64,000 nt of DNA from Squalus acanthias. Its lineage: Eukaryota. A program made the position numbers and the translations under genes. The notes under the pieces are model-generated. The model was not told where the DNA came from. It ran no database searches and was given only the letters and a program-made list of their open reading frames with translations. This document shows positions 19,029 to 52,777 of the stretch, piece after piece (the stretch's first letter is position 1; every line of letters begins with the position of its first letter). The DNA is taken from positions 47,060,001-47,124,000 of the forward strand of contig CM059432.1 of NCBI GenBank assembly GCA_030390025.1, in the 5' to 3' direction.

Positions 19029-19093
19029 TATTCAACATTCTTTGAATTCAGTGATCGACTGGAGTTTATGATGGAAAAAGCCTATATATACAG
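19029..19093 (+). CDS. CNGB3: CNGB3-like exon (human exon 9 equivalent, S4-S5 linker)
   Basis: ttccccag|TATTCA...ATACAG|gtaggc; 65 nt; [21 protein letters not shown](R). Confidence 0.92.
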
Positions 19094-22000: not shown

Positions 22001-25000
22001 GCTGGAAATTTGAAATTAAAACAGAAAATGCTGGAAATATGCAGCAAGTGAGTAACAAAGAAAGAGATAAGGCAGGTTTGTGGTGTAATCCTTTGTCAGT
22101 CTGAAACTGAAAGATAAGCAAGTATTTTAGAATGCTTTTATAACTCGGAAGTACGGGTTTCCCTCAGCTTCTGCCGAATTTAATGGCACAACCTGATTAC
22201 CATTTTTGGAATCCATTTCCCGGTCGCAGCCAGCCAGATTGAGAGACTGGCTGGCTGTCGGGCGGATAGGCCTGCGGCACCAGGCAGCAGCTGTGGAGTG
22301 TGGAGGAGGGAGGAGGAGGATTGTGGGTCAGGGGGCATCAATAAGGGGGCCTGGAGAGATCACAGGCCAGGTAGAAGATTAGGGGTGAGTTCGGGGAGAA
22401 GATTGCTGGGGGTCCAGGGAGAAGATTGCGGGCCATGGAGGACATCGGGAGGGCATCGGATTGCAGGACGGAGGGTCCCATTGTGGGAGGGGGGGTCCGA
22501 TTGCTAGGGAGGCTAACAGGGTAGCTTGGGGGGCTGGAGGAAGCACTCCCACTGGCCCACAAGCATGCTGGAAAGGCACTTACCTGTTCCATCCAGCAGT
22601 CCTCGCCTCCCTTCAGCTGTTGGGTTTCCCAAGGCCTGGGAAACCTGGTCGGCCAGTACTAAAGCTGGGAACAGAGATAAAATCTTAGGCACGCTGCCTA
22701 ATTAAAATATTTAAATGAGGGACCTGTCTCCTGAGAGCGGGTTGGTCACCCGCCCCCCGTCCCGCCTCTGTTAAAACCAGAAGTGGGCGGGTTCGAGGCG
22801 GTTTGGGTTCAGGCTTGAAATTTTTAACATTTTTACTTCCCACCCGACCCAAGCCCATCCATTTTTGGGGATTAAATTTACCCCCAATGTGGGCTACAAC
22901 CCTTATCTTTCATTATACCTTCCTTGAGGTGGTACATTCCATTTGCACAATGGTGCTCTACCTGTGAATACCACAATCTGACAAAACTCATCCCAACTGT
23001 TACAGTTAGATGAATCATTAGATTAGATAGCAATCTAAAAGCCAATACTACAGCCACTTTGTTGCAAAGCAAGTAGTTCACCATTAATACGAACTAGCAC
23101 ATATGTTTCATTCTGTTTACAGAGTTGCACGAACAACAGGATATCTGCTTTTCCTTCTGCATGTAAATGCTTGTATGTATTACTGGGCTTCAGAATATGA
23201 AGGCATTAGCAGCAATAAATGGGTCTACAATGGCAAAGGAAACAGGTAAAAGTTTCGTCAGATCCTGTTTGAGATTGTCACTGCAAAAATTGAAAAGCGA
23301 ACAATTAGCACGGCACACATCACTTTTCTAGGCCAATGATTATATTTTCACACTAACAGACAACAATTTCAACCTTTGGCTACATATGGGTGTGCTTTAA
23401 AATTCAAATCCACTGATGTTCTGCATTTACTGCCTGCATCTCTCTTACCTGCAAATGTGCGGCTCCTTGTCTCTGGCCTGCTACCCACTGCTCACCTACC
23501 CTGGCATGTTGTCCCAGAGGTAGAGTGAGAGAGAGGGAGAAGAGGGTTGTAATGGGCGGTGGCCTTTGGCAAAAAGCTAGTGAGACACAATATTCAAATC
23601 AAGTACAATTTAAAGAGTTCTTTTGGCTAGTTTGCAGGACTTCACTGAGCTTGAAACTACCATTTGTCACTAGAACTTCAGCAATAGTTTTATAATTTAC
23701 CAAAGATTTTATTGGTTAAATTCTGCAGTTAATTTCTTTAACATCACAATTATGTTAGCCTTCCATGTTAAAAAAAAGGATGGACTATTTTAAACCATTA
23801 TCCAATTCTCTGGATCAAAAAAGCAGTTCTCTAATCTTGGGGTCCAGGGGGGCGATTTTGCCAGCCCTGGGGAGGCAGGTATGGAGGCAGGACTGCCGGG
23901 AAAATGGCAAAATTTGGGGGCGGGTGCCCAACCCGCCCCCAACCCGCCTCCGTGCCATCTTGCCAGGAGGCGGGTAGCCGTCCCACGCCGGGTCCCGTCT
24001 CCTTGGAGGCGGGAAGGGTTAAAGCCTATTAACTGCCTGTTAACAGGTAGTTAACAGGCAGAAAATAGGATTATCCCCTTTTTGCTCTCACAAGTGCGGG
24101 CTTCCCGAAGGCTCCGAAACCTGCCAGGTCAGCAAAGTGAGTACTGGGTCTGCGGGGGTCGGGGGGGGTGGGGGCTGCAAAAGTGTGCTGTGAAGGTAAG
24201 TGCTGGGTGCAAGAGTGGAGAGGTGAGTATCTGAGGTAAGTGCAAAGTGTTAATAAAAGTGCACTTACCTTTGTTTCTTCCTGCAGGCTTTAGTCGGTGT
24301 GTATGCGGAGAGTCTAAGACCTCCGTGTTGGAGATGACAGATGGCCGTTGCATTCTCAGATGCAACAACCATCTCATTTCTGTAAAAGAAAGAAGTTTGA
24401 TGAGGTCTTGAATTCAAGACCTCATCAAACTACAGAGAATGTCACTGTTTGACAGCTTCACAGAGCTATCAAACGATGACAATTCATCTGTCAAAAATTT
24501 TTGACAGATGAAACGCCATACGTTGAGGTTTTCTGCAACCGGCTTTCCCTTAATTGGCCTGCTAAACCCGCTGGGCGGGCTTAACAAGGTCAATCAAGGG
24601 AAAATAGCGTGGGTTGGCCAGAAGTTGATGGAGGCGGGACTGAAACCCGACAAGTGCGAGTCCCGCCTCCAAAAGCTCCCCATTGAGAAAATCATCCCTC
24701 AGCTCTGCTGCTACAGTTTAGAAATTCCATTCATTACATTGCCTTCCAATCACACGTGGGTATCTGTGGACATAATGCAGAACATTCGAGTTAATCATTT
24801 ACTGAAGCAATTACTAGCAGGATTACATACAAATTGTTTGTTGTTTATATTTCAAAATCTAAGTCTGCTTGTCCTTTTTACGTTGCAACATGTATTTTTT
24901 CCTTAAGTGCTGCATTGCTTCACTTGCTGCATATGACTAATATATATTGCATTATTTCTTCTCTTTGAAACTGCACGGTACCTGCATTTTCTTCTCTGAA

Positions 25001-28000
25001 CATTGAATTTATTTATTTTCTTCACATTTTAGAAAAAAGCTTTAATGGTAAATTGTTATTTTTAATCATGTGGCATCAGTTCATACTTAAACTTGAAGAT
25101 GAATATTTTCTATTTTTCTTTTTTCATATATTTCTTTTTTCTTCTTGCCCTGTTGATAATTTTTTTAGCTACATCAGCTGTTTCCTTTATGCGGAGAAAT
25201 CCCTTCTGATGATTGCTGAGCTTCCATACCCCACCAATGAATTTGAGCAAATATTTCAGATGTGCAACTATTTTTTAGGAGTTCTTATTCTTTCAGCCAT
25301 TCTTGGTCAGGTATACTTAACAACTTTGTTATTTTTATTAACGTCTTAAAATAATACTACCTTTTTTTCTTGAAAATGCTTAAGTTATTTTACCAGAAAG
25401 AAGCCTTTTGTGCCTGATTTTAATCTATTATTTTTGTTTTCAGTTCTTTATAAGCTGCTAGATTTCCAATTGATTTTTGGCCAGCTCAATTGCAAATCTC
25501 GAACTGAATAGTTAGCAAAATCTCCTTGATACCAAAATAAAAGACACGGAAAATACATTAAAAATACAAGATTTAGGACCTAATGGGCGAAATGGTGACA
25601 GGTACAACATAATATAGACAAGAATAAAATAGTAGTAATAAAAAAGTCACTTTTATATAGCAGCAACATGTTAAAACACTTTCATAGAACAATCACTAAC
25701 AATCACTATTAGAGTGCAGTGATTGTTGTTATGTAGACAAGTGCAACAGCAATATCCCACAAACAACAATATGAATGACCAGTTAATCTGTATTTTTTTG
25801 TATTTTGTTTATTTGTTCTTTGGAAGTGGCAAGACTACATTTTTATTGCCCATCCCTAGTTGCCCTGAGAAGGCGGAGGTGGGCCTTTCCCTTGGACTGT
25901 TGCAGTCCTGTGGTGATGGCGCTCCTACAGTGTTAATTATGCCTCATATTCCAGGATTTTGGCCAAGTGGCAATGAAAAAACAGCAATACATGTCTACTT
26001 CAGGATGGAGGACTCAGTGATGGTGGTGCCATTGAAGGTCAGAGTTAGGTGAGTGGGCCTTTTCTTTGGAGATGGTCATTGCCTGGCATTTGCATGGCAC
26101 AAATATTACCTGCACTTGTCAGCCCAGACCGGGATGTTATCCTGGTCCTGCTGTAGACTGGCATGGGCTGCTTCATTACTGAATGGAGCTGAACACTGTA
26201 GAATCATAAGTGAACAGTCCCACTCCTGACCTTATGACAGAGGGAAGGTCATTAATGAAGCAGTTGAACATGGTTAGGCTAAGGACACTTCCCTGAGGAA
26301 CTCCTGATGTCCTGGGGCTGCGAAGATTGGCCTCCAACAATCATGACCATCTTCCTTTGTGTCAAGTGTGACTCCAGTCACTGGAGGATTTTCCCTTGAT
26401 CCCTTTTGGCCTCTTTTTTGCTAGTGCTCCTTGAAGCCATACTAAGTCAAGCGCTGCCTTGATGTCAAGAGCAGTTACTCTCACCTCTCCTCTGGCATTC
26501 AGCTATTGTGTCGATGTCTGGATCAAGGCTATGATGAGGTCTGGAGCTGAGCAGTTCTGATGGAACTCAAATTAAGCGATAGTGAGCAGGTTATTGGTGA
26601 GTCGGTATTGTTTGATGGCACTGTTGATAACTCCTTCCATGGCTTTGCTGATGATTGGGAGGAGCCTGTTTGGGCAGTAATTGGCACATTAGCTTTATGT
26701 CGATAGAGTTTACTGGACAGTTTTCCACATTGTTGTTTAGATGCCAGTGTCATAGCTGCACTGGATAGTTTGGCTGAGTGGGGTGGGGACACTACACTGT
26801 ACCCAGTGCACTCAGTATGGAAATGGTTGAGGAGGAATATTGGCTAGAGCATTAGAAGAACTCTTACTTTTCTTTGAATAGTACTATGAAACTTTCACAA
26901 CTACCTCTGGTTAATAGTGTCTCCAAGAATGCAGCATTACCTTAATTTTCACCTCATTCCAGTGAATTTTTAAATGTATTGGCAGTTAGTAAATGTATTA
27001 GCCTCATCAAATTTTCTTGGAGATTTTGCTTTCTGTATACCCTTATCCAAATACCGATTGCAGTAGTCAACCTAGATTATGCACTCAAATCTAACCTTCT
27101 GAACCAAAGTTTACCATTTGAGCTAATCTATCATATAGTAATTAGTAAGGGAACCAAAGTAAGGAGTGCATGGGTAATTTTCCAACTTCATATTTCCAGT
27201 GAGTTACCAAGAGAGGCAAATTTAAAATTCAGGCACATGCTGCATATGCTTTTCCTACCATCCTGGCCACTGTCTAAGGCTGAACAAGACAGTTCACAAC
27301 CTCTGCGTCCAATTTAACCCCAAGCTGAGCTTCCGACCCCAAATCCTCTCCATCACCAAGACCACCTACTTTTACCTATGTAATATCGTCCATCTCCGCC
27401 CCGCTTCATCTCAACTGCTGCTGAAACCCTCAGCCATGCCTCTGTTATCTCCAGACTCAACTATTCCAATGCTCCCTGACCGACCTCACACCCTCTCTAA
27501 ACTTTAGCTCTGCTGCCTGTATCCTAACTCGCACCAAGTCCCATTCACCCCTCACCCCTGTGCTTGCTGATCTACATTGGCTCTCGGTCCGGCAATGCCT
27601 CGAATTTAAAATTCTCATCTTAGTGTTCAAATCCCTCCATGGCCTCGCCCCTCCATCCCTTTCTCTGTAACCTCCTCCAACCCTACAAACCTCCGAGAAC
27701 TCTGTGATACTCCAATTCTGGCATTTTGTGCATCCCCGATTTCCATCAGTCCAGCTTTGGCAGCCGTGCCTTCAGCTTCCTAGGCCCTAAGCTCTGGAAT
27801 TCCCTTCCTAAACCTCTCTGCCTCTCTTTCCTTCTTTAAGACACTCCTTAAAACCTACATTTTTGGCCAAGCTTTTGTTCACCTCTCCCTAATACCTCTT
27901 TATATGACTCGGTGTCAAATTTTGTCTGATAATGGGATGTTTTACTACATTAAAGGTGCTATATAAATGCAAATTTTTGTAGTTGTGCTTGGAACATTGT

Positions 28001-31000: not shown

Positions 31001-34000
31001 CCATGAAAACCCAGCATTCAGCAGACTGACAGAGGTGCTGTCACCACCTCTTAAAGCGACACACACATCTTTCAGGTAAGTTTGCATTTAAGCTTTTGGA
31101 GTGGATTTTTTTTTTATTTTATTGAAGTAGTGTCTTCCTACAAAAGTTTTTTAAGTGGGCAGGGAGTGCTGCTGGATGCTTGCAAGGCCTCAGATGGTAA
31201 AGGAAGGCCTCTGAGAAGACAGAAAATGCTGCAAATACTCAGCAGGTCAGGCAACATCCGTTGAGAGAGAAACAGAGTTCACGTCTCAGTTTGAGATGCT
31301 GTCTGACCTGCAGAGTATTTCAGATTTACAGCATCCATTTGCAGAGGGAAGAGGAAGACACAGAAGAGGAAGACGCAGAAGAGGAAGACGCCGCAGAGGA
31401 AGCCACAGAGGAGGAGGAAGCGGAAGGAAGGATGCAACCCAGACAGCGCCTTTCAAGCTGGGATATCTGGGATAGAATCATCCGCCTGCGGTACCGGTGA
31501 CCACAACCCCAATTCCACTTTCAGCATTTATCCCACACCTTACTTTCCCTCTGTTACTGACCATCACAGCATGCTTTTGGCCACAATGCTGAAATAAAAG
31601 CCACCACAAAGCAAACTTTCCAACCCAACTTTATACATCTATCCATCCAATATGACATCAAGAAATCAACTCATCACCCTTATGCATTCCCTTAGTGACT
31701 GTCATGTGTGAGCCTTTGCGTATCCTACTGATGTCACACAGTGCTACCCCAGTGGCTCTTCCTCCTCCTCCTCATCCTCCTCATCCTCACCCTCCTCGTC
31801 CTCTTCCCCTCCCTCCCCTGGCCATGGGCTCAGCCATTATCCTGCCAAGAATGGCCAGCACCGTTTCCTCCAAGGGCATGAGGAGAAACTAGGAATGGGA
31901 GATGTGCATCGTTTTTGATAGAGATTGTTGGTAGGTGAGTGATTGCGGTGGGGGAGTTGTGCATTGAGCAATGTGTGAGGCTAGTGATGCAGTTGGTATG
32001 AGACAACTTTTGAAGATGCATTCACTGACCTTGACCAGTGGTCTAAAGTCATGAAGCTTCTTTGGGCACTGGAGCCAGGTGGTGGGGGGCGACATTGCTG
32101 GCAGTGACAGCCTCGATGATGTGGTGCCACATCGTTCTTTCTGGAGGACCTCCTGGCCCCTGTGGGTACAGGACCTTTCTTGCAGTGTTAACTCCCTGTA
32201 CAAAGCTGGAGTGCTGCATGCGAGACCCTGGGTGGCCCTTCCCTGGCTTGCTAAGCCATTTGTGTTGGTGCTGAAGCACTCTTCCCCTTTTTTTTAGATG
32301 CGGAAGGGAATTCGGCTTTAAGAGCTGAAGATTCCCATTTGGGAATTTTTTTTCAAATGTAAATTTTTTTTTTCAGGACGCAGTTGAGCTTTAAGGGCTG
32401 AGATAACACATTTTTACATTGTTTTATTTTTATAATTTCAGAAGTCATTGCCCATTTCAGAACACGACACTGCATTGCCCTTTTAACATCCCACAATGCT
32501 TTGCGAAATCACAGCCTCGCTTTCAGAGGCTGTGCAAAGCTGCAATGCTACTTCTGGACACCACATTGGGGCCTGATGCCAGGGTGAACACCACCAGGAG
32601 GGTATTACACGGTCAGATTAGCGCTGGGCTAATAATCATTAGTCCCCTGTGCAAATTTTCACTCCTACCGGTGCCACCATTTTTGGCGGCCGTTAACCTG
32701 CGACTGCGGTGGCACTGGCAGGTTTCGTGTCACACTCGAATTTTTAGGCCATGGTCTATATAGGCCTAAATTTGCCAGCTTGGCTCAGTTGGTAGCACTC
32801 CACCCATAATCCAAGCTGATAACTCAGTACAGTTCGGAAGGAGTGCTGCGTTGTATGAGGTGCCATCTTTGATCTAAAATATTAAATTGAGGCCTTGACT
32901 GCCTGTTCATGTGGATGTAAAACATCCCATGACACTATTTAAAGAAAAGCAGGGAGTTCTCTAGCTCATTCAATCATCTCATTTGTTGTTTGTATGACTT
33001 TGTTGTGCATAAATTGGCTGCTGCACATAACATAACTGCACTTGAAAAATAATTAATTGGCTGTAAAGCACTTTGAAATTTCCAGAGAATGTGAAAGGCA
33101 CTCTGTAAATGCAAGTTCTGTCTTTTTTCAAATCCTTCTTGTTCTTAGAAATTTTAATGTTCTAACCAACAATGTACATTCTGAATTTTTCCCCTAATTT
33201 AAATATGGTTTCAACTGCTAAAAAATATTTGTGTTCTCCAGGTACCTGAGGTGTTACTATTGGGCAGTCCGCACTTTGATTACTATTGGTGGCATTCCCG
33301 AACCAGTCACTGTCTTTGAAATAATCTTTCAGGGGTGCAATTATTTCACAGGTGTCTTTGTGTTCTCCAGCTTACTTGGTCAGGTAAATGGATATGCCTC
33401 AGAATGGATCACTGTTCATTACAGTGTATTCATTGTATCACTTTTAAATTGTGCGTCAAGCCAAAGAATAAAAGCAAAGGCTGAGGCAAAGGTTTGAAGC
33501 AAGTATTGCTGAATCAAATACTAGTAAATAAAAAGTTGTGTACACTTTATTACACTATACTAGAAAACTCTGTTTCCCAAGTTTGACATGAGGTGGAATT
33601 GGTCTACAATTGACTATTTTTATTTTAAACCTTCAATAGTCCATAAGCATTGCATTACTCTGCAAAAACACTTAATGAAACTGCCAATGTTGAATTGATC
33701 TGTTAAACAATTCCTTTTCAGTGGGAGAAGGATATTCAACCCAAATAATACTAATGGAAGTCTTTTAAGATAATTGGTAAAAAAAACAGGGGGAGATGAG
33801 GAGAATTTTTTTACTCAGCAAGTTGTTATAATCTGGAATGCATTGCCTGAAAGGGTGAAGGAAGAGGATTCAATAGTAACTTTCAAAAGGGAAGCAGATA
33901 TATAATTTAAAAAACATTTTTGCAGGACTACGAGGAACGACCTAACCCTTCAGTTACACTTGCGATTTTAAGGCTCTCACCAGATACTTCTCTCATGCTC

Positions 34001-43000: not shown

Positions 43001-46000
43001 CACCACCGAACTTTTCCCCCTATGCCTCTATGAAGTCCAGGATCCAGAATGCTTTTTTAACCGCTTTCTCAACGTGCCCTGCCACCTTCAATGATTTGTG
43101 CACATATACCCCCAGGTCTCTCTGTTCATGCACCCCCTTTAGAATTGTACCCTTTAGTTTATATTGCCTCTCCTCGTTCTTCCTACCAAAATGTATCACT
43201 TCGCACTTTTCAGCAGTAAATTTCATCTGCCACGTGTCCGCCCATTCCACCAGCCTGTCTATGTCTTCTTGAAGTCTATCACTATCCTCCTCACTGTTCA
43301 CTACACTTCCAAGTTTTGTGTCATCTGCAAATTTAGAAATTGTGCCCTGTATACCCAAGTCTAAGTCATTAATATATATCAAGAAAAACAGTGGTCCTAG
43401 TACCGACCCCTGGGGAACACCACTGTATACCTTCCTCCAGTCCGAAAAACAACCGTTCACCACTGCTCTCTGTTTCCTGTCACTTAGCCAATTTCATATC
43501 CATGCTGCCACTGTCCCTTTTATTCCATGGGCTTCAACTTTGCTGGGAAGCCTATTCTGTGGCACTTTATCAAATGCCTTTTGGAAGTCCATGTACACCA
43601 CATCAACCGCATTGCCCTAATCAACCCTCTCTGTTACCTCATCAAAAGACTCAATCAAGTTAGTTAAACACGATTTGCCTTAACAAATCCGTGCTGGCTT
43701 GCCTTAATTAATCCACTCTTGTCCAAGTGATTGTTAATTTTGTTCCGGATTATCATTTCTAAAAGGTTCCCCACTACCGAGGTTAAACTGACAGGCCTGC
43801 ATTTGCTGGGTTTATCCTTACACCCTTTTTTGAACAAGGGTGTAACATTTGCAATTCTCCAGTCCTCTGGCATCAGCCCCATATCCAAGGAGGATTGTAA
43901 GATTATGGCCAGTACCTCCGCCAGTACCTCCGCAATCTAAGAGTTAACACACCCGGAGCCCATAAATGATTGACTCTTGGTTAGGTAGTCTCCAAGATCT
44001 GCAAATGAAGAGTACAATGAAACAGCTTGACAATAGAAGATAAAGCAAGCTTACTGCAGAACTTAATGAATGGCCTGAATTTTAATCGGTGGCAGGTTGG
44101 CAGTGAGGGGGGTGCTTGGAAGCAGTCGGGAAACCTGAATTTAATGGCAGGGCCTAATTTGCATGGGAAACCTCTGTTTCCCACTCGCAGCCAGACAGAT
44201 TGAGAGGCTGGCTAGCTGTGGATGAGTAGGCCTGCAGCACTAGGCCGTAGAGAGGAGGGAGGGAGGGATCACGTGGGGGCCAGGGGATGGCCAGAGGAGG
44301 ATCGGGGGGAAGGGTCGGGACCAATCGAAGGGCTGGAGGAGCAGTGGGGGGGTCAGGAACGATCAGAGGGCCGGAGGAGCAGTGGGGAGGGGGGTTGGGA
44401 ACAATCGGGGGCCGGAGCGGCTGATCAGAGGGCCGGAGGAGCTGGGGTGGGGGGGAGGGATGGAGGGGGCGGAACCGAGTGTGCATTGGAGGGCTGGAGG
44501 AGCTGGGGTGGTGGCCGGGTGAGCATTGGAGGAGCGGGGGATGGGGGGAGTGGGTGCAGGTGCGCATCAGAGGGCCGAGAGCAACACGGGGGGACAGAGG
44601 CAGCAGATCGGGGAGCCAGGAGCAGCAGCACAGGGTCCGGAGCAGCATGGGTGGTTGAGGCCTCATTGTGGGTGGGGGGGGAATCGGAGGACAGGGGGGG
44701 GAATCGGAGGCCTCGTGGGGCGTCTGCAATCACGGGGGATGGATTAGGCAGGGAAGCTGGATCCAGGAGGTAAGTGTAAAGGCCCTTACCTCCTGGATCC
44801 AGCAGTCCTCGCCTTACTTTAGCTGGCAGGTTTCACGAGGACTGCAAAACCAGACTAGCCAATGTTAAATTTAAAATGGAGGTTAAATCTGAGGCACACC
44901 AGCCTCATTATAATATTTAAATGGAATACGCACCTTCTGGGAGCGGGTTGGCTTCCCCCCCACCCTGTCCTGCCTCCATTAAAATTGGAAGTAGGCGGGT
45001 TGGAGGCGGGTTCTGGTCAGGATTCTGACTTTAACACTTTAACTTCCCACCCGACCCAAACCCACCCATTTTTTGGGGTTAAAATTCCCCCCAAAATGTC
45101 TGATGGGTCTGCCTTTTTCCTCATTTTCAGATGCGTGATATTATCGGGGCCGCCACTGCAGGGCAGAATTATTACCAAACCTCTGTGGACAACACAATGA
45201 CATACATGAATATGTATTCAGTTTCAAGATACGTGCAAAATCGCGTGCGTAAATGGTATGAATACATATGGGAATCACAAGGCCTGCTGGGTATGTAAGC
45301 TGAGTCCACGCTGTGCTTCCTATTTCAGAATTTCTCTGGCGGCTTCTTTGACATTAAAAAAAACACAATATTTCTTTCAGATGCATCTGAGCTATTGGAA
45401 GATATGCCAACAAAGATGCAGCTGGCCATTGCTATTGATGAAAACTATGCGATCGTCAGCAAAGTTGACCTGTTTAAGGTATGTATGTAAAATGTTAACC
45501 AGTCTGCTAAAAATCAGCATGTGTATATAACAGAGTTTATTATTGCCTTGAGTTGACTGGATTCTGTCTACACTATTAACTATGGGAATCGTGCTAAAAA
45601 GAAGTTCAGATGAATCACTAGATACAGCTTTTAAACTGCAAGTACACTATTGAAAGTATGCTTCAAAATTCTTCTGTGTGTTACTTTTGGGACACTGTTT
45701 CACGTGTTTGCATTAACTTCCTACCTGTGCTATTTTAACATATTTATTAACTCATTTAAAATAATAGTACACATGGAAGTTTGATGCAAACATGTTAACC
45801 AGTCTGCAAAAAAAATCAGCATGTGTACATAACAGAATTTATTAGAGCCAACAATGTTTCACATTGTTTCTCTATTAGTGTGACAGCCATAAACAATACT
45901 TGTTGACTCAGAGCTAGTGCTATATCAACGCAAAAGTAAGAGGCTGCAATATATTTTTCTTGTTGACCCTAATTTTAAAATATTGATATTTTCATCCCTG

Positions 46001-52000: not shown

Positions 52001-52777
52001 ATTGTTAATGCTGAAGAAATGCAGTGCTCCAGAGAAATTAGGTTACTCCCTGCAGTGAAATGATCAAACTTAAACGTGTCGGTCCTTGGTGAAATATGCA
52101 TCAGCTTCCAGCTCTAGACTGTGGCATTTGTCGCAGTTGGTTAACTTTGGACAGCAATTATAAGCGACAAGGTAATATCGGCAATAATCTTTTCTTTTCG
52201 GTGTCTAAAGGTTCTGTGCTTTTTGCCAAGAGAATCTGAAATTAACTATTATAAATAACCTGTTATACACTGCATCCTGTGTTACTGGTTTTTAACAAGC
52301 ATGTTTTGTTCTTAGGTGAAATCATAATAGACAATATAATTTTTTGGCCTAGATAAGAACTAGTTTCAGTGGTCTCAGGTAAACAGCCCACTGTTGCAAG
52401 GTGGAGAGTATGCCAAAGTCCACGCGACAATGAAACAAGGTTTCACATAGTCAGTAACTCCTGTATCAATATAACTTTAGTAAATCATGCACATAGGCAG
52501 CACCCACACCTGGGAAGAACAGCATAGGGATGGGAGGAATTGTCGGTAGCAACCCTAGAGTTCTATCCATAATTCAGTAAACAAGAAAGAAGTAACATTT
52601 TCCAGGTATTTATAGATTTAGTGCTGTCTAAAAGCCACTAAAATGCTTATCTTATTGGACTTTAATCAATATTGTATTGCCATGTCTCTCCAGGAGTGTG
52701 ACCAAGAGATGATATATGAAATGCTGCTCAAGCTGAAGTCAGTTGTATATTTGCCTGGTGATTTTGTATGTAAGAAG
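19029..52777 (+). CDS. CNGB3: Cyclic nucleotide-gated channel beta subunit (CNGB3-like), partial multi-exon gene: 19029-19093, 23123-23245, [25169-25310 or 33242-33383], 45131-45290, 45381-45478, 52694-52777
   Basis: Manual splicing at AG/GT sites gives one open frame: [45 protein letters not shown]...[21 protein letters not shown]...[17 protein letters not shown]...[35 protein letters not shown]. Exon sizes 65/123/142/160/98/84 match human CNGB3 exons 9-14 as recalled. [20 protein letters not shown] and KVDLFK favour CNGB3 over CNGB1. Flanking exons were not found in the window. Confidence 0.9.
20215..21172 (+). mobile_element. CR1 LINE 3' fragment
   Basis: [43 protein letters not shown]; tail TATGTTCTTATG. 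Confidence 0.9.
21560..21730. repeat. Degenerate tandem repeat, about 34-40 bp unit
   Basis: Repeated core ctcccc(c)a(g/a)ta(c/t)tgagtgaca, about 5 copies. Confidence 0.6.
21747..21913. mobile_element. hAT-type MITE (167 bp)
   Basis: TIR CAGTGTTCCCTGTAAGCTGC / GCAGCTTAAAGGGAACATTG; 8-bp TSD GTTCTAAC/GTGCTAAC. Confidence 0.8.
22150..22885. mobile_element. MITE-like repeat, related to 44072-45092
   Basis: Shared blocks gcagccagccagattgagag, atccagcagtcctcgcc, cttcccacccgaccca and end AAATTTACCCCC. Confidence 0.65.
23123..23245 (+). CDS. CNGB3: CNGB3-like exon (exon 10 equivalent, S5 and turret)
   Basis: tttacag|AGTTGC...AAACAG|gtaaaa; 123 nt; [40 protein letters not shown]. Confidence 0.93.
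23848..24699. mobile_element. Harbinger-like MITE with internal palindromes
   Basis: Ends GGGGGCGATTTT / AAAATCATCCCT flanked by CAG..CAG. Confidence 0.65.
25169..25310 (+). CDS. CNGB3: Duplicated, divergent pore-helix/filter/S6 exon (candidate mutually exclusive alternative exon)
   Basis: Long pyrimidine tract ...ttttttag|CTACAT...GGTCAG|gtatac; 142 nt, phase 2 to 0, open; [47 protein letters not shown] aligns without gaps to the canonical pore exon (22/47 identical). Confidence 0.8.
25830..26770 (-). mobile_element. Degraded LINE RT/3' fragment (6160 family)
   Basis: Reverse complement of tail (tttattgcccatccctagttgccctga) and RT remnants (gccttgatgtcaagagcag). Confidence 0.75.
27310..27972 (+). 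mobile_element. L2 LINE 3' fragment
   Basis: ctccagactcaactattccaatgct (SRLxYSNA), tacattggctc (LHWL), aaaattctc; tail taaaggtgctatataaatgcaa. Confidence 0.75.
28906..32750. mobile_element. Degraded Harbinger with nested LTR
   Basis: Ends GGGCTAAAAGTT / AATTTTTAGGCC; acidic transposase tail at 31340-31500 (+); Myb remnant 31830-32280 (-). Confidence 0.65.
29097..30936 (-). mobile_element. Probable solo LTR or deleted LTR element (1.84 kb)
   Basis: TGTA...TACA termini, 4-bp TSD GACT both sides, AATAAA on minus strand near 29248, no coding homology recognised. Confidence 0.65.
32780..33118 (+). mobile_element. tRNA-derived Deu-domain SINE (SacSINE1/AmnSINE-like), degraded
   Basis: tggctcagttggtagcactc head; gtggatgtaaaacatcccatgacactattt core; L2-like tail gaaaggcactctgtaaatgcaag. 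Confidence 0.7.
33242..33383 (+). CDS. CNGB3: CNGB3-like canonical pore/S6 exon (exon 11 equivalent)
   Basis: ttctccag|GTACCT...GGTCAG|gtaaat; 142 nt; [47 protein letters not shown]. Confidence 0.95.
34360..37112 (+). mobile_element. CR1 LINE ORF2, frameshifted
   Basis: [58 protein letters not shown]; tail (ATTCTATG)n. Confidence 0.92.
37470..38505 (-). mobile_element. 5' part of the tRNA-headed LINE (second copy)
   Basis: Head GTAGCGTAGTGGTAATG...GAGTTCAAATCCCACC at about 38410-38503, then [25 protein letters not shown] and [10 protein letters not shown]. Confidence 0.85.
38530..41222. mobile_element. Harbinger remnant: transposase (+, to 39239) and Myb gene (-, about 41220-39447)
   Basis: [57 protein letters not shown]. 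Confidence 0.85.
41502..41651. mobile_element. 150-bp MITE (Harbinger/Tourist-like)
   Basis: About 38-bp TIRs GGGGATCATTTTGATTTTGGGCAATGGTG / CACCATTGCCCAAAGTCAAAATTATCCCC; TSD ATT. Confidence 0.8.
41719..43915 (-). mobile_element. CR1 LINE 3' half, split by a MITE
   Basis: [37 protein letters not shown]; tail (ATTCTATG)n. Confidence 0.92.
42329..43020. mobile_element. GC-rich Harbinger MITE
   Basis: GGTAGAAAAATTGGG...CCGAACTTTTCCCCC with TSD TAT; interrupts CR1 cleanly. Confidence 0.82.
44072..45092. mobile_element. MITE-like repeat (22150 family)
   Basis: GGCCTGAATTTTAATC...GTTAAAATTCCCCCC; G-rich low-complexity centre. Confidence 0.65.
45131..45290 (+). CDS. CNGB3: CNGB3-like exon (exon 12 equivalent, C-linker)
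   Basis: ttttcag|ATGCGT...TGCTGG|gtatgt; 160 nt; [53 protein letters not shown]. Confidence 0.94.
45381..45478 (+). CDS. CNGB3: CNGB3-like exon (exon 13 equivalent, C-linker)
   Basis: ctttcag|ATGCAT...TTTAAG|gtatgt; 98 nt; [33 protein letters not shown]; preceded by a 90-nt intron. Confidence 0.93.
46993..51321 (-). mobile_element. Full-length Ty3/Gypsy LTR retrotransposon, CsRn1-like
   Basis: LTRs 46993-47222 and 51077-51321 (TG..CA), TSD CTAT, PBS TGGTGACCCCGA (tRNA-Trp), PPT GGATTCTGGGGGGAGCTG, gag-PR-RT-RH-IN order. Confidence 0.95.
47243..51036 (-). pseudogene. gag-pol polyprotein, frame break near 50715, protease DTG changed to NTG
   Basis: [72 protein letters not shown]. Confidence 0.88.
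52694..52777 (+). CDS. CNGB3: CNGB3-like exon (exon 14 equivalent, start of CNBD)
   Basis: ctctccag|GAGTGT...AAGAAG|gtaatc; 84 nt; [28 protein letters not shown]. Confidence 0.94.

What the first reader, a model, noticed from the sequence alone, without database searches (positions are those of the whole stretch)
25196..25300. Alternative exon puts an alpha-subunit-type Glu in the filter and changes gate residues
Seen: canonical [16 protein letters not shown] becomes [16 protein letters not shown], and S6 [11 protein letters not shown] becomes [11 protein letters not shown]. Established: CNGA subunits have TIGETPPP, whose Glu binds Ca2+/Mg2+ and sets divalent block, while CNGB subunits have Gly there. 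The alternative exon has Glu at that exact position. It also loses the T and G of TIG and the pore-helix Trp, and changes the equivalents of human CNGB3 R403 to Lys and F434 to Leu (numbering from memory). Inference: the isoform would alter Ca2+ permeation, block or gating of the heteromer, or act as a silencing subunit.
Basis: partly seen in the sequence, partly recalled or inferred. Interest (0 to 1): 0.8.

Follow-up and report, generated by a model that had tools for sequence, protein, structure and literature searches.

The report
Ancient swappable pore in cone channel
A shark gene for the cone light-sensing ion channel subunit CNGB3 carries two interchangeable copies of its pore exon; the second copy, spliced into RNA of related species and also found in chimaera, ray-finned fishes and lampreys, puts an acidic residue where this subunit normally has glycine, which would likely strengthen calcium block of the channel.

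Summary
The window is a shark CNGB3 gene with two tandem 142-nt copies of the pore/S6 exon (human exon 11): '11a' at 25169-25310 and the canonical one at 33242-33383. Using both, or neither, gives a premature stop. RNA-type contigs of relatives splice exon 10 to 11a, and one continues to exon 12, skipping the canonical copy. 11a is also in chimaera, gar, bichir, teleosts and lamprey CNGBX, so it is probably about 500 My old. At the filter position (human G410) it has Glu or Asp in 50 of 50 distinct sequences; the canonical exon has Gly in 36 of 36. 11a derives from a CNGB exon, not from CNGA. Stronger Ca2+ block is inferred from an engineered CNGB1 G-to-E mutant. Against a simple CNGA-like filter: T407 is lost, G409 is mostly Ala, and a low-confidence model lengthens the pore helix. 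Six of six published eye transcripts use the canonical exon, so the expressing cell is unknown. No tetrapod copy was found (weak evidence). It sits uncommented in database gene models; ten literature searches found no description. The scan noted it before only on this window.

The parts
19029..19093 (+). CNGB3 exon equivalent to human exon 9 (65 nt)
   Evidence: human size from PMC12146803
23123..23245 (+). CNGB3 exon equivalent to human exon 10 (123 nt; S5 and turret); upstream partner of both pore exons
   Evidence: spliced to 11a in contigs of X1 and X7
24828..24878 (+). Short intronic stretch conserved in a relative (45 of 51 letters), about 300 nt upstream of 11a; possible splicing element, untested
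   Evidence: run X14 record 3
25169..25310 (+). Alternative pore exon '11a' (142 nt): pore helix, filter MIAE, S6
25194..25196 (+). Glu codon at the V402 position of the pore helix; present in all full-length 11a sequences seen
   Evidence: 57 of 60 hits carry it and the other 3 begin downstream of it
25218..25220 (+). Filter Glu codon (human CNGB3 G410, CNGA3 E368 position); synonymous GAG/GAA change in relatives
25290..25292 (+). Leu at the upper cavity-gate position (human F434)
33242..33383 (+). Canonical pore exon (human exon 11, 142 nt; filter TIGG)
45131..45290 (+). Exon 12 equivalent (160 nt; carries the arginine-gate residue R442; C-linker); downstream partner
   Evidence: the X7 contig runs from 25310 into it, 28 of 30 letters matching
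45381..45478 (+). Exon 13 equivalent (98 nt)
52694..52777 (+). [quoted passage not shown]

Best explanation
This shark CNGB3 gene has two tandem copies of its pore exon of which only one fits the reading frame, RNA of related species splices in the upstream copy (11a) in place of the canonical one, and the resulting subunit likely gives the channel a fourth acidic filter residue and so would likely bind and be blocked by Ca2+/Mg2+ more strongly. Shown: exon pair, frame logic, splicing in relatives, conservation from lamprey to teleosts, conserved Glu/Asp at the G410 position, origin from a CNGB exon. From published work: CNGB subunits act in heteromers with CNGA; their Gly and pore-helix Arg/Lys are thought to weaken Ca2+ binding; an engineered CNGB1 G-to-E change much enhances block. 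Inferred: 11a-CNGB3 assembles with CNGA3 and conducts; the Glu faces the lumen; smaller unitary current, lower noise and a changed Ca2+ fraction follow; F434 to L/M alters gating while the arginine gate is kept; exclusion is helped by decay of frameshifted transcripts; the isoform serves a minority of cone-type photoreceptors (a cone subtype or pineal cells).
For: Same length and phase, AG/GT ends. Either exon alone is open; both stop at 33317, neither stops at 45198. The 1,923-nt intron is bridged in X1 and X7, and X7 continues into exon 12; X5 fits the same join: 3 studies, 2 organisms. Database isoform pairs differ only in this exon: gar, 25 differences at 411-453; Petromyzon, 27 at 401-446; trout has both forms in one cluster. 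Position 17 is E in 47 and D in 3 of 50 distinct 11a segments, G in 36 of 36 canonical ones. 11a is 100%, 98% and 85% identical to sawshark, catshark and chimaera, above the flanking exons (for chimaera 75%, 62%, 62%). All 13 11a rows form one clade (100/100) ordered like the species tree. CNGB1 G-to-E precedent (PMC10761061 section 9). R442 is kept in 45 of 47 11a isoforms. cngb3 is a pseudogene in the cone-less little skate and in the Greenland shark, which ties the whole gene, both exons, to cone-type cells.
Against: No functional data. T407 (Ca2+ site 2 in the CNGA structures) is M/V/L, and G409 is Ala in 46 of 50, so the filter is not a CNGA copy. In AlphaFold monomers the pore helix runs to the G409 position with 11a but ends at the I406 position with the canonical exon; both models are poor (mean pLDDT 52 and 44; rmsd mostly above 20 A to solved chains), so this is only a hint. 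The basic residue at 403 is retained and E413 is lost, so the outer charge is rearranged and not simply raised. Six of six eye-derived CNGB3/CNGBX transcripts in Lamb 2016 use the canonical exon. No RNA of the window's own species was found, the tissues of the runs are unknown, and 2 of the 5 runs laid (X6, X14) show 11a only with intron flanks.
Confidence: 0.58

Rival explanations
1. 11a makes a damping or silencing subunit: it assembles with CNGA but its reshaped filter (M-I-A-E, longer helix, extra pore-helix Glu) cuts conductance or surface delivery, so splicing turns the channel down.
For: T407 and usually G409 are replaced; longer helix in a weak model; long stem branch of 1.34 changes per site; not the assembled eye isoform in 6 of 6.
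Against: Strict conservation of an acidic residue at exactly the CNGA Glu position, with E/D interchange, suggests ion coordination; lamprey has V-I-G-D, close to the T-V-G-D of human CNGA4. Hinge G430 and R442 are kept.
Confidence: 0.2
2. The channel conducts, but the Glu points behind or above the filter; the selected differences lie in gating, pharmacology or subunit contacts (V402E, F434L/M, S6 changes), not in divalent block.
For: Predicted helix extension would move the Glu; V402E is as constant as the filter Glu; F434 is L or M in 46 of 50 segments, the other 4 being chimeric gene models.
Against: Ungapped alignment with I408, L411, P412 and P414 retained around the site; the model is low-confidence and monomeric.
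Confidence: 0.15
3. 11a serves a non-photoreceptor tissue, with another CNGA partner.
For: All 7 catshark RefSeq isoforms, both chimaera models and many teleost models use 11a, whereas eye assemblies use the canonical exon.
Against: The gene is reported as a pseudogene in two rod-only elasmobranchs, which an essential extra-ocular role should prevent. Not exclusive of the best explanation's biophysics.
Confidence: 0.15
4. A neutral relic or pseudo-exon picked up by gene predictors.
For: Some gene models join both exons or parts of them (P0015, P0031, P0191, P0195, P0196), so annotation of the locus is error-prone.
Against: Spliced contigs, conservation to lamprey, higher identity than flanking exons, synonymous change at the Glu codon.
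Confidence: 0.02

Closest known systems
Vertebrate CNGB3 (cone CNG channel beta subunit; human exon 11, filter TIGG)
   Same: Same gene, same exon sizes (65/123/142/98 nt), canonical exon nearly identical, arginine gate kept.
   Different: A second pore exon with filter MIAE, MIGE or VIGD; the review states TIGG for CNGB subunits; in human minigenes skipping exon 11 gives p.Y394* and no substitute exon is mentioned in the passages read.
CNGA filter (TIGE; TVGD in human CNGA4) and the engineered CNGB1 Gly-to-Glu mutant
   Same: Acidic residue at the fourth filter position.
   Different: Natural, switched by splicing, derived from a CNGB exon; lacks T and mostly G, keeps the basic pore-helix residue, adds V402E.
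Mutually exclusive homologous exons from tandem duplication (SNAP25 exon 5a/5b; the 97 human cases of Abascal 2015)
   Same: Tandem, equal length, one used at a time, ancient.
   Different: [quoted passage not shown]
Snail Cav3 exons 12a/12b and TRPM3 pore-loop isoforms (abstracts only)
   Same: Splicing near the pore changes ion selectivity or pharmacology.
   Different: Those alter a turret or loop; here the whole pore helix, filter and S6 of one subunit of a heteromer are exchanged.

Membership tests
CNGB3 gene | Canonical pore exon best matches CNGB3, and exon sizes match human CNGB3 | tested here: met
   E 7.9e-22 to CNGB3; 65/123/142/98 nt; a separate CNGB1 locus lies on C6
CNGB3 gene | Ion-transport domain plus cyclic-nucleotide-binding domain in the 11a isoform | tested here: met
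   Catshark and lamprey 11a isoforms hit both Pfam families; the two gar isoforms hit cNMP_binding only; exons along C8 46.97-47.17 Mb
Mutually exclusive homologous exons | Tandem homologous exons of equal length and phase with intact splice sites | tested here: met
Mutually exclusive homologous exons | Transcripts carry one copy, not both | tested here: met
   10-11a-12 in one X7 contig; canonical-only eye transcripts; both or neither give stops. Shown in relatives, not in the window's species
Mutually exclusive homologous exons | Both copies conserved across species | tested here: met
Mutually exclusive homologous exons | Regulated, cell-type-specific choice | not testable with these tools
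   Run tissues not given; contigs cannot show levels
CNGA-type selectivity filter (TIGE) | Acidic residue at filter position 4 | tested here: met
   E 47, D 3 of 50
CNGA-type selectivity filter (TIGE) | Thr at position 1 and Gly at position 3 | tested here: not met
   M/V/L at position 1 in 50 of 50; Ala at position 3 in 46 of 50
CNGA-type selectivity filter (TIGE) | Descent from a CNGA pore | tested here: not met
   The 11a clade lies among CNGB exons, apart from the two CNGA rows (only 47 columns)
CNGA-type selectivity filter (TIGE) | Carboxylate projects into the lumen and sets Ca2+ block | tested here: inconclusive
   Low-confidence monomer models only; no electrophysiology
Silencing or modifier channel subunit | Co-assembles and lowers current | not testable with these tools
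   Needs expression

The most novel reading that the evidence does not exclude
The early vertebrate cone-type CNG channel had a splice switch between a three-carboxylate, weakly blocked pore and a four-carboxylate, strongly Ca2+-blocked pore. Lampreys, cartilaginous and ray-finned fishes still use it to give a distinct photoreceptor class (a cone subtype or pineal cells) different noise, gain and Ca2+ feedback, and the tetrapod line lost it.
Probability: 0.35. Interest if true: 0.86.

Novelty: new variant of a known kind. Interest (0 to 1): 0.7.

Why it matters
The Gly of CNGB in the filter is treated as the fixed reason why native rod and cone channels are less blocked by Ca2+ than CNGA homomers. 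A natural, ancient, splice-selectable Glu/Asp version would mean that fish and lamprey can tune Ca2+ entry and block through one exon. It gives a natural test of the proposed roles of G410, R403, T407 and F434. It also warns that many database 'CNGB3' fish proteins are the non-canonical isoform, which affects phylogenies, cloning and disease models. The switch is directly testable by heterologous expression and in laboratory teleosts.

Tried and rejected
Gene conversion from CNGA: rejected by the exon tree. A matching exon in this shark's CNGB1: none in 70 kb around its pore exon with an 11a profile, and no further credible copy among the 7 matches of the genome search (the three weak hits on small contigs contain stops). 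RNA docking structure enforcing exclusion: 21 pairings of splice-flanking regions, best z -2.5 against simple shuffles, not convincing. Steric exclusion: the intron between the copies is 7.9 kb here and about 200-250 nt in two unnamed fish-type ORFs, long enough to splice. Structure: both AlphaFold monomers were low-confidence and the fold search gave only the family. No complex prediction was run, as it would tend to pass by likeness to solved CNG structures. Tetrapod copy: none among 42 named hits (3 cartilaginous, 39 ray-finned; 18 more unnamed); 100 of 100 bird and reptile representatives are canonical; no further 11a-like group among the 150 listed of 165 profile hits. This is weak: isoforms hide inside clusters (the gar pair shares one) and one search missed the known lamprey copy. 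Orthology of the lamprey gene (CNGBX) to CNGB3 is unresolved: a joint clade is not rejected (p-AU 0.295) and the opposite test did not finish. No listed holder is on record as RNA. Zero depth on the canonical exon in X5-X7 was not used, since human-like contigs are filtered and the runs were found with 11a. Which teleost duplicate carries 11a: one lineage in the tree, but database labels conflict (carp 'duplicate 2', trout 'duplicate 1').

Full report
OBSERVATION. Both are 142-nt exons with AG and GT ends and the same phases; they share 84 of 142 nt and 22 of 47 aa without gaps. The downstream copy matches human CNGB3 394-440 (E about 1e-21). The upstream copy matches CNGB1 and CNGB3 at about 1e-7 and CNGA far more weakly. 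Neighbouring exons of 65, 123, 160, 98 and 84 nt agree with human exons 9 (65), 10 (123), 11 (142) and 13 (98) as given in PMC12146803. I call the upstream copy 11a. The genome is 3.7 Gb, and the flanking exons are 89-92% identical to sawshark CNGB3, so the host is a shark. CNGB1 is a separate locus on C6, and the remaining CNGB3 exons lie in order on C8.

MUTUAL EXCLUSION. Each copy is 1 mod 3 in length. With either copy alone the frame is open through exon 14; with both it stops at 33317, with neither at 45198. The run search listed 17 runs, 14 holding part of the stretch, none of the window's own species and none on record as RNA; I laid 5 of them. In X1 and X7 one contig bridges the 1,923-nt intron from exon 10 to 11a, and the X7 contig continues with 30 letters of which 28 match the start of exon 12, skipping the canonical exon. 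X5 has a 252-nt contig that fits the same join. X6 and X14 show 11a only with intron flanks, and X1 shows the canonical exon only with intron flanks. Bridging a GT-AG intron shows that these contigs come from spliced RNA; tissues are unknown. Database isoform pairs agree: gar X1 and X2 are both 705 aa and differ at 25 positions, all in 411-453; two Petromyzon models differ at 27 positions, all in 401-446.

CONSERVATION. The exon is found in sawshark (100%), catshark (98%, all 7 RefSeq isoforms) and chimaera (85%), then in gar, bichir, whitefish and toothfish. A profile search gave 60 hits: 42 named (3 cartilaginous, 39 ray-finned) and 18 unnamed. Petromyzon and Lethenteron carry a version with V-I-G-D, in a gene whose N-terminus matches the CNGBX of Lamb 2016. 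Among 50 distinct 11a segments, position 17 is E in 47 and D in 3; it is G in 36 of 36 canonical segments. Position 9 (V402) is E throughout. My pattern selected on that residue, but 57 of the 60 hits match the pattern and the other 3 start downstream, so the constancy is not an artefact within that set. A few chimeric gene models contaminate the counts after position 23. 11a is more conserved than its flanking exons in sharks and chimaera, and the Glu codon differs only synonymously in X1, X5 and X6. In a 47-column tree the 13 11a rows form one clade (100/100) on a long stem among CNGB exons, with lamprey basal, then cartilaginous, then ray-finned fishes. The simplest reading is one duplication before the lamprey-gnathostome split (about 500 Ma, the figure in PMC4494069), fast divergence, then strong constraint. 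Amphioxus, tunicate and sea cucumber CNGB-like proteins have G or N at the site, so the acid is derived. Whether CNGBX is the CNGB3 orthologue is unresolved; this shark's CNGB1 has no second exon. No tetrapod copy was found, but the searches are weak for that question (see Tried and rejected).

MECHANISM. The review PMC10761061 gives the filter as TIGE in CNGA and TIGG in CNGB, says that heteromers have three acidic residues plus a pore-helix Arg/Lys and weaker Ca2+ block, and reports much enhanced block when CNGB1's Gly is mutated to Glu. It names F434/I438 as the cavity gate and R442 as a second gate. 11a supplies the Glu naturally; changes R403 to K, the CNGB1 state, which lacks R403's hydrogen bonds to the filter; shrinks F434 to L or M; and keeps G430 and, through exon 12, R442. 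The most likely effect is stronger divalent block and altered Ca2+ flux. This is inference. Against a plain CNGA mimic: T407 becomes M, G409 becomes A in 46 of 50, E413 is lost and V402 becomes E. AlphaFold monomers from 36-sequence alignments end the pore helix at the G409 position for 11a and at the I406 position for the canonical control, but mean pLDDT was 52 and 44, so this is only a reason to keep the reshaped-filter rivals open.

WHERE IT IS USED. All six eye-derived CNGB3 or CNGBX proteins in the supplement of Lamb 2016 (ray, bamboo shark, gar, bowfin, two lampreys) have the canonical exon, so 11a is not the main assembled retinal form there. Yet cngb3 is reported as a pseudogene in the cone-less little skate (bioRxiv 10.1101/2025.07.30.667746) and in the Greenland shark (PMC12770505), which argues against an essential role outside cone-type cells. 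A minority photoreceptor class, in retina or pineal, fits both facts but is not shown.

LITERATURE. Ten full-text searches found no description of a second CNGB3 pore exon. What I saw: PMC10761061, outline, passages and part 1 of section 9; PMC9803222, passages and section 7 ('exon' and 'pore' have 0 occurrences); PMC4948711, passages, section 18 and searches of supplement files 2-4 (file 1 could not be searched); PMC7954323, supplement search only, no CNGB hit; PMC4494069, PMC8370914, PMC12146803, PMC12770505 and two bioRxiv preprints, passages only, their supplements unseen; PMC9694082, PMC9290681 and PMC2581893, search listing and start of abstract only. The primary CNGB1 mutant paper was not read; I rely on the review. 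Most subscription papers are outside the library, including older fish CNG cloning work that I only recall, so a prior mention cannot be excluded. The isoform is already present, without comment, in RefSeq and Ensembl-derived gene models. The scan's earlier notes list it only on this window.

VERDICT. A real, ancient, mutually exclusive pore exon in a vertebrate cone-type CNG beta subunit. The class of event is known; this instance and its acidic CNGB filter appear undescribed. Existence and conservation are near certain; the Ca2+-block mechanism is about 0.58. Interest 0.7.

Noticed in passing
window:47246-50740 (-): Open frame of 1,165 aa with reverse transcriptase, RNase H and integrase domains (LTR-retrotransposon-type pol) inside a CNGB3 intron.
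   Followed up: partly
window:10984-12591 (+): 536-aa frame with a reverse transcriptase domain, probably a LINE fragment.
   Followed up: partly
window:25102-25317 and 33157-33498: Intron flanks of both pore exons are conserved in relatives' contigs (14 differences in 217 letters; 41 in 341), and in X1 exon 11a has 3 differences against at least 9 in the canonical exon. This fits splicing regulation.
   Followed up: partly
P0132: A fused icefish gene model holds both teleost cngb3 duplicates: the first shows both pore exons, the second only the canonical one, so one duplicate may have lost 11a.
   Followed up: partly
P0004, P0014, P0016, P0022, P0024, P0032, P0111: Several sharks have Ser for P412 in the canonical exon, and many teleost-type canonical exons have Asn for T407.
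   Followed up: no
G000:C7:17811608-17812806 (-): A CNG-alpha-like match split into two adjacent pieces, one with a stop, possibly a broken CNGA gene.
   Followed up: no
P0310: Short unnamed ORF that looks like a decayed 11a copy.
   Followed up: no
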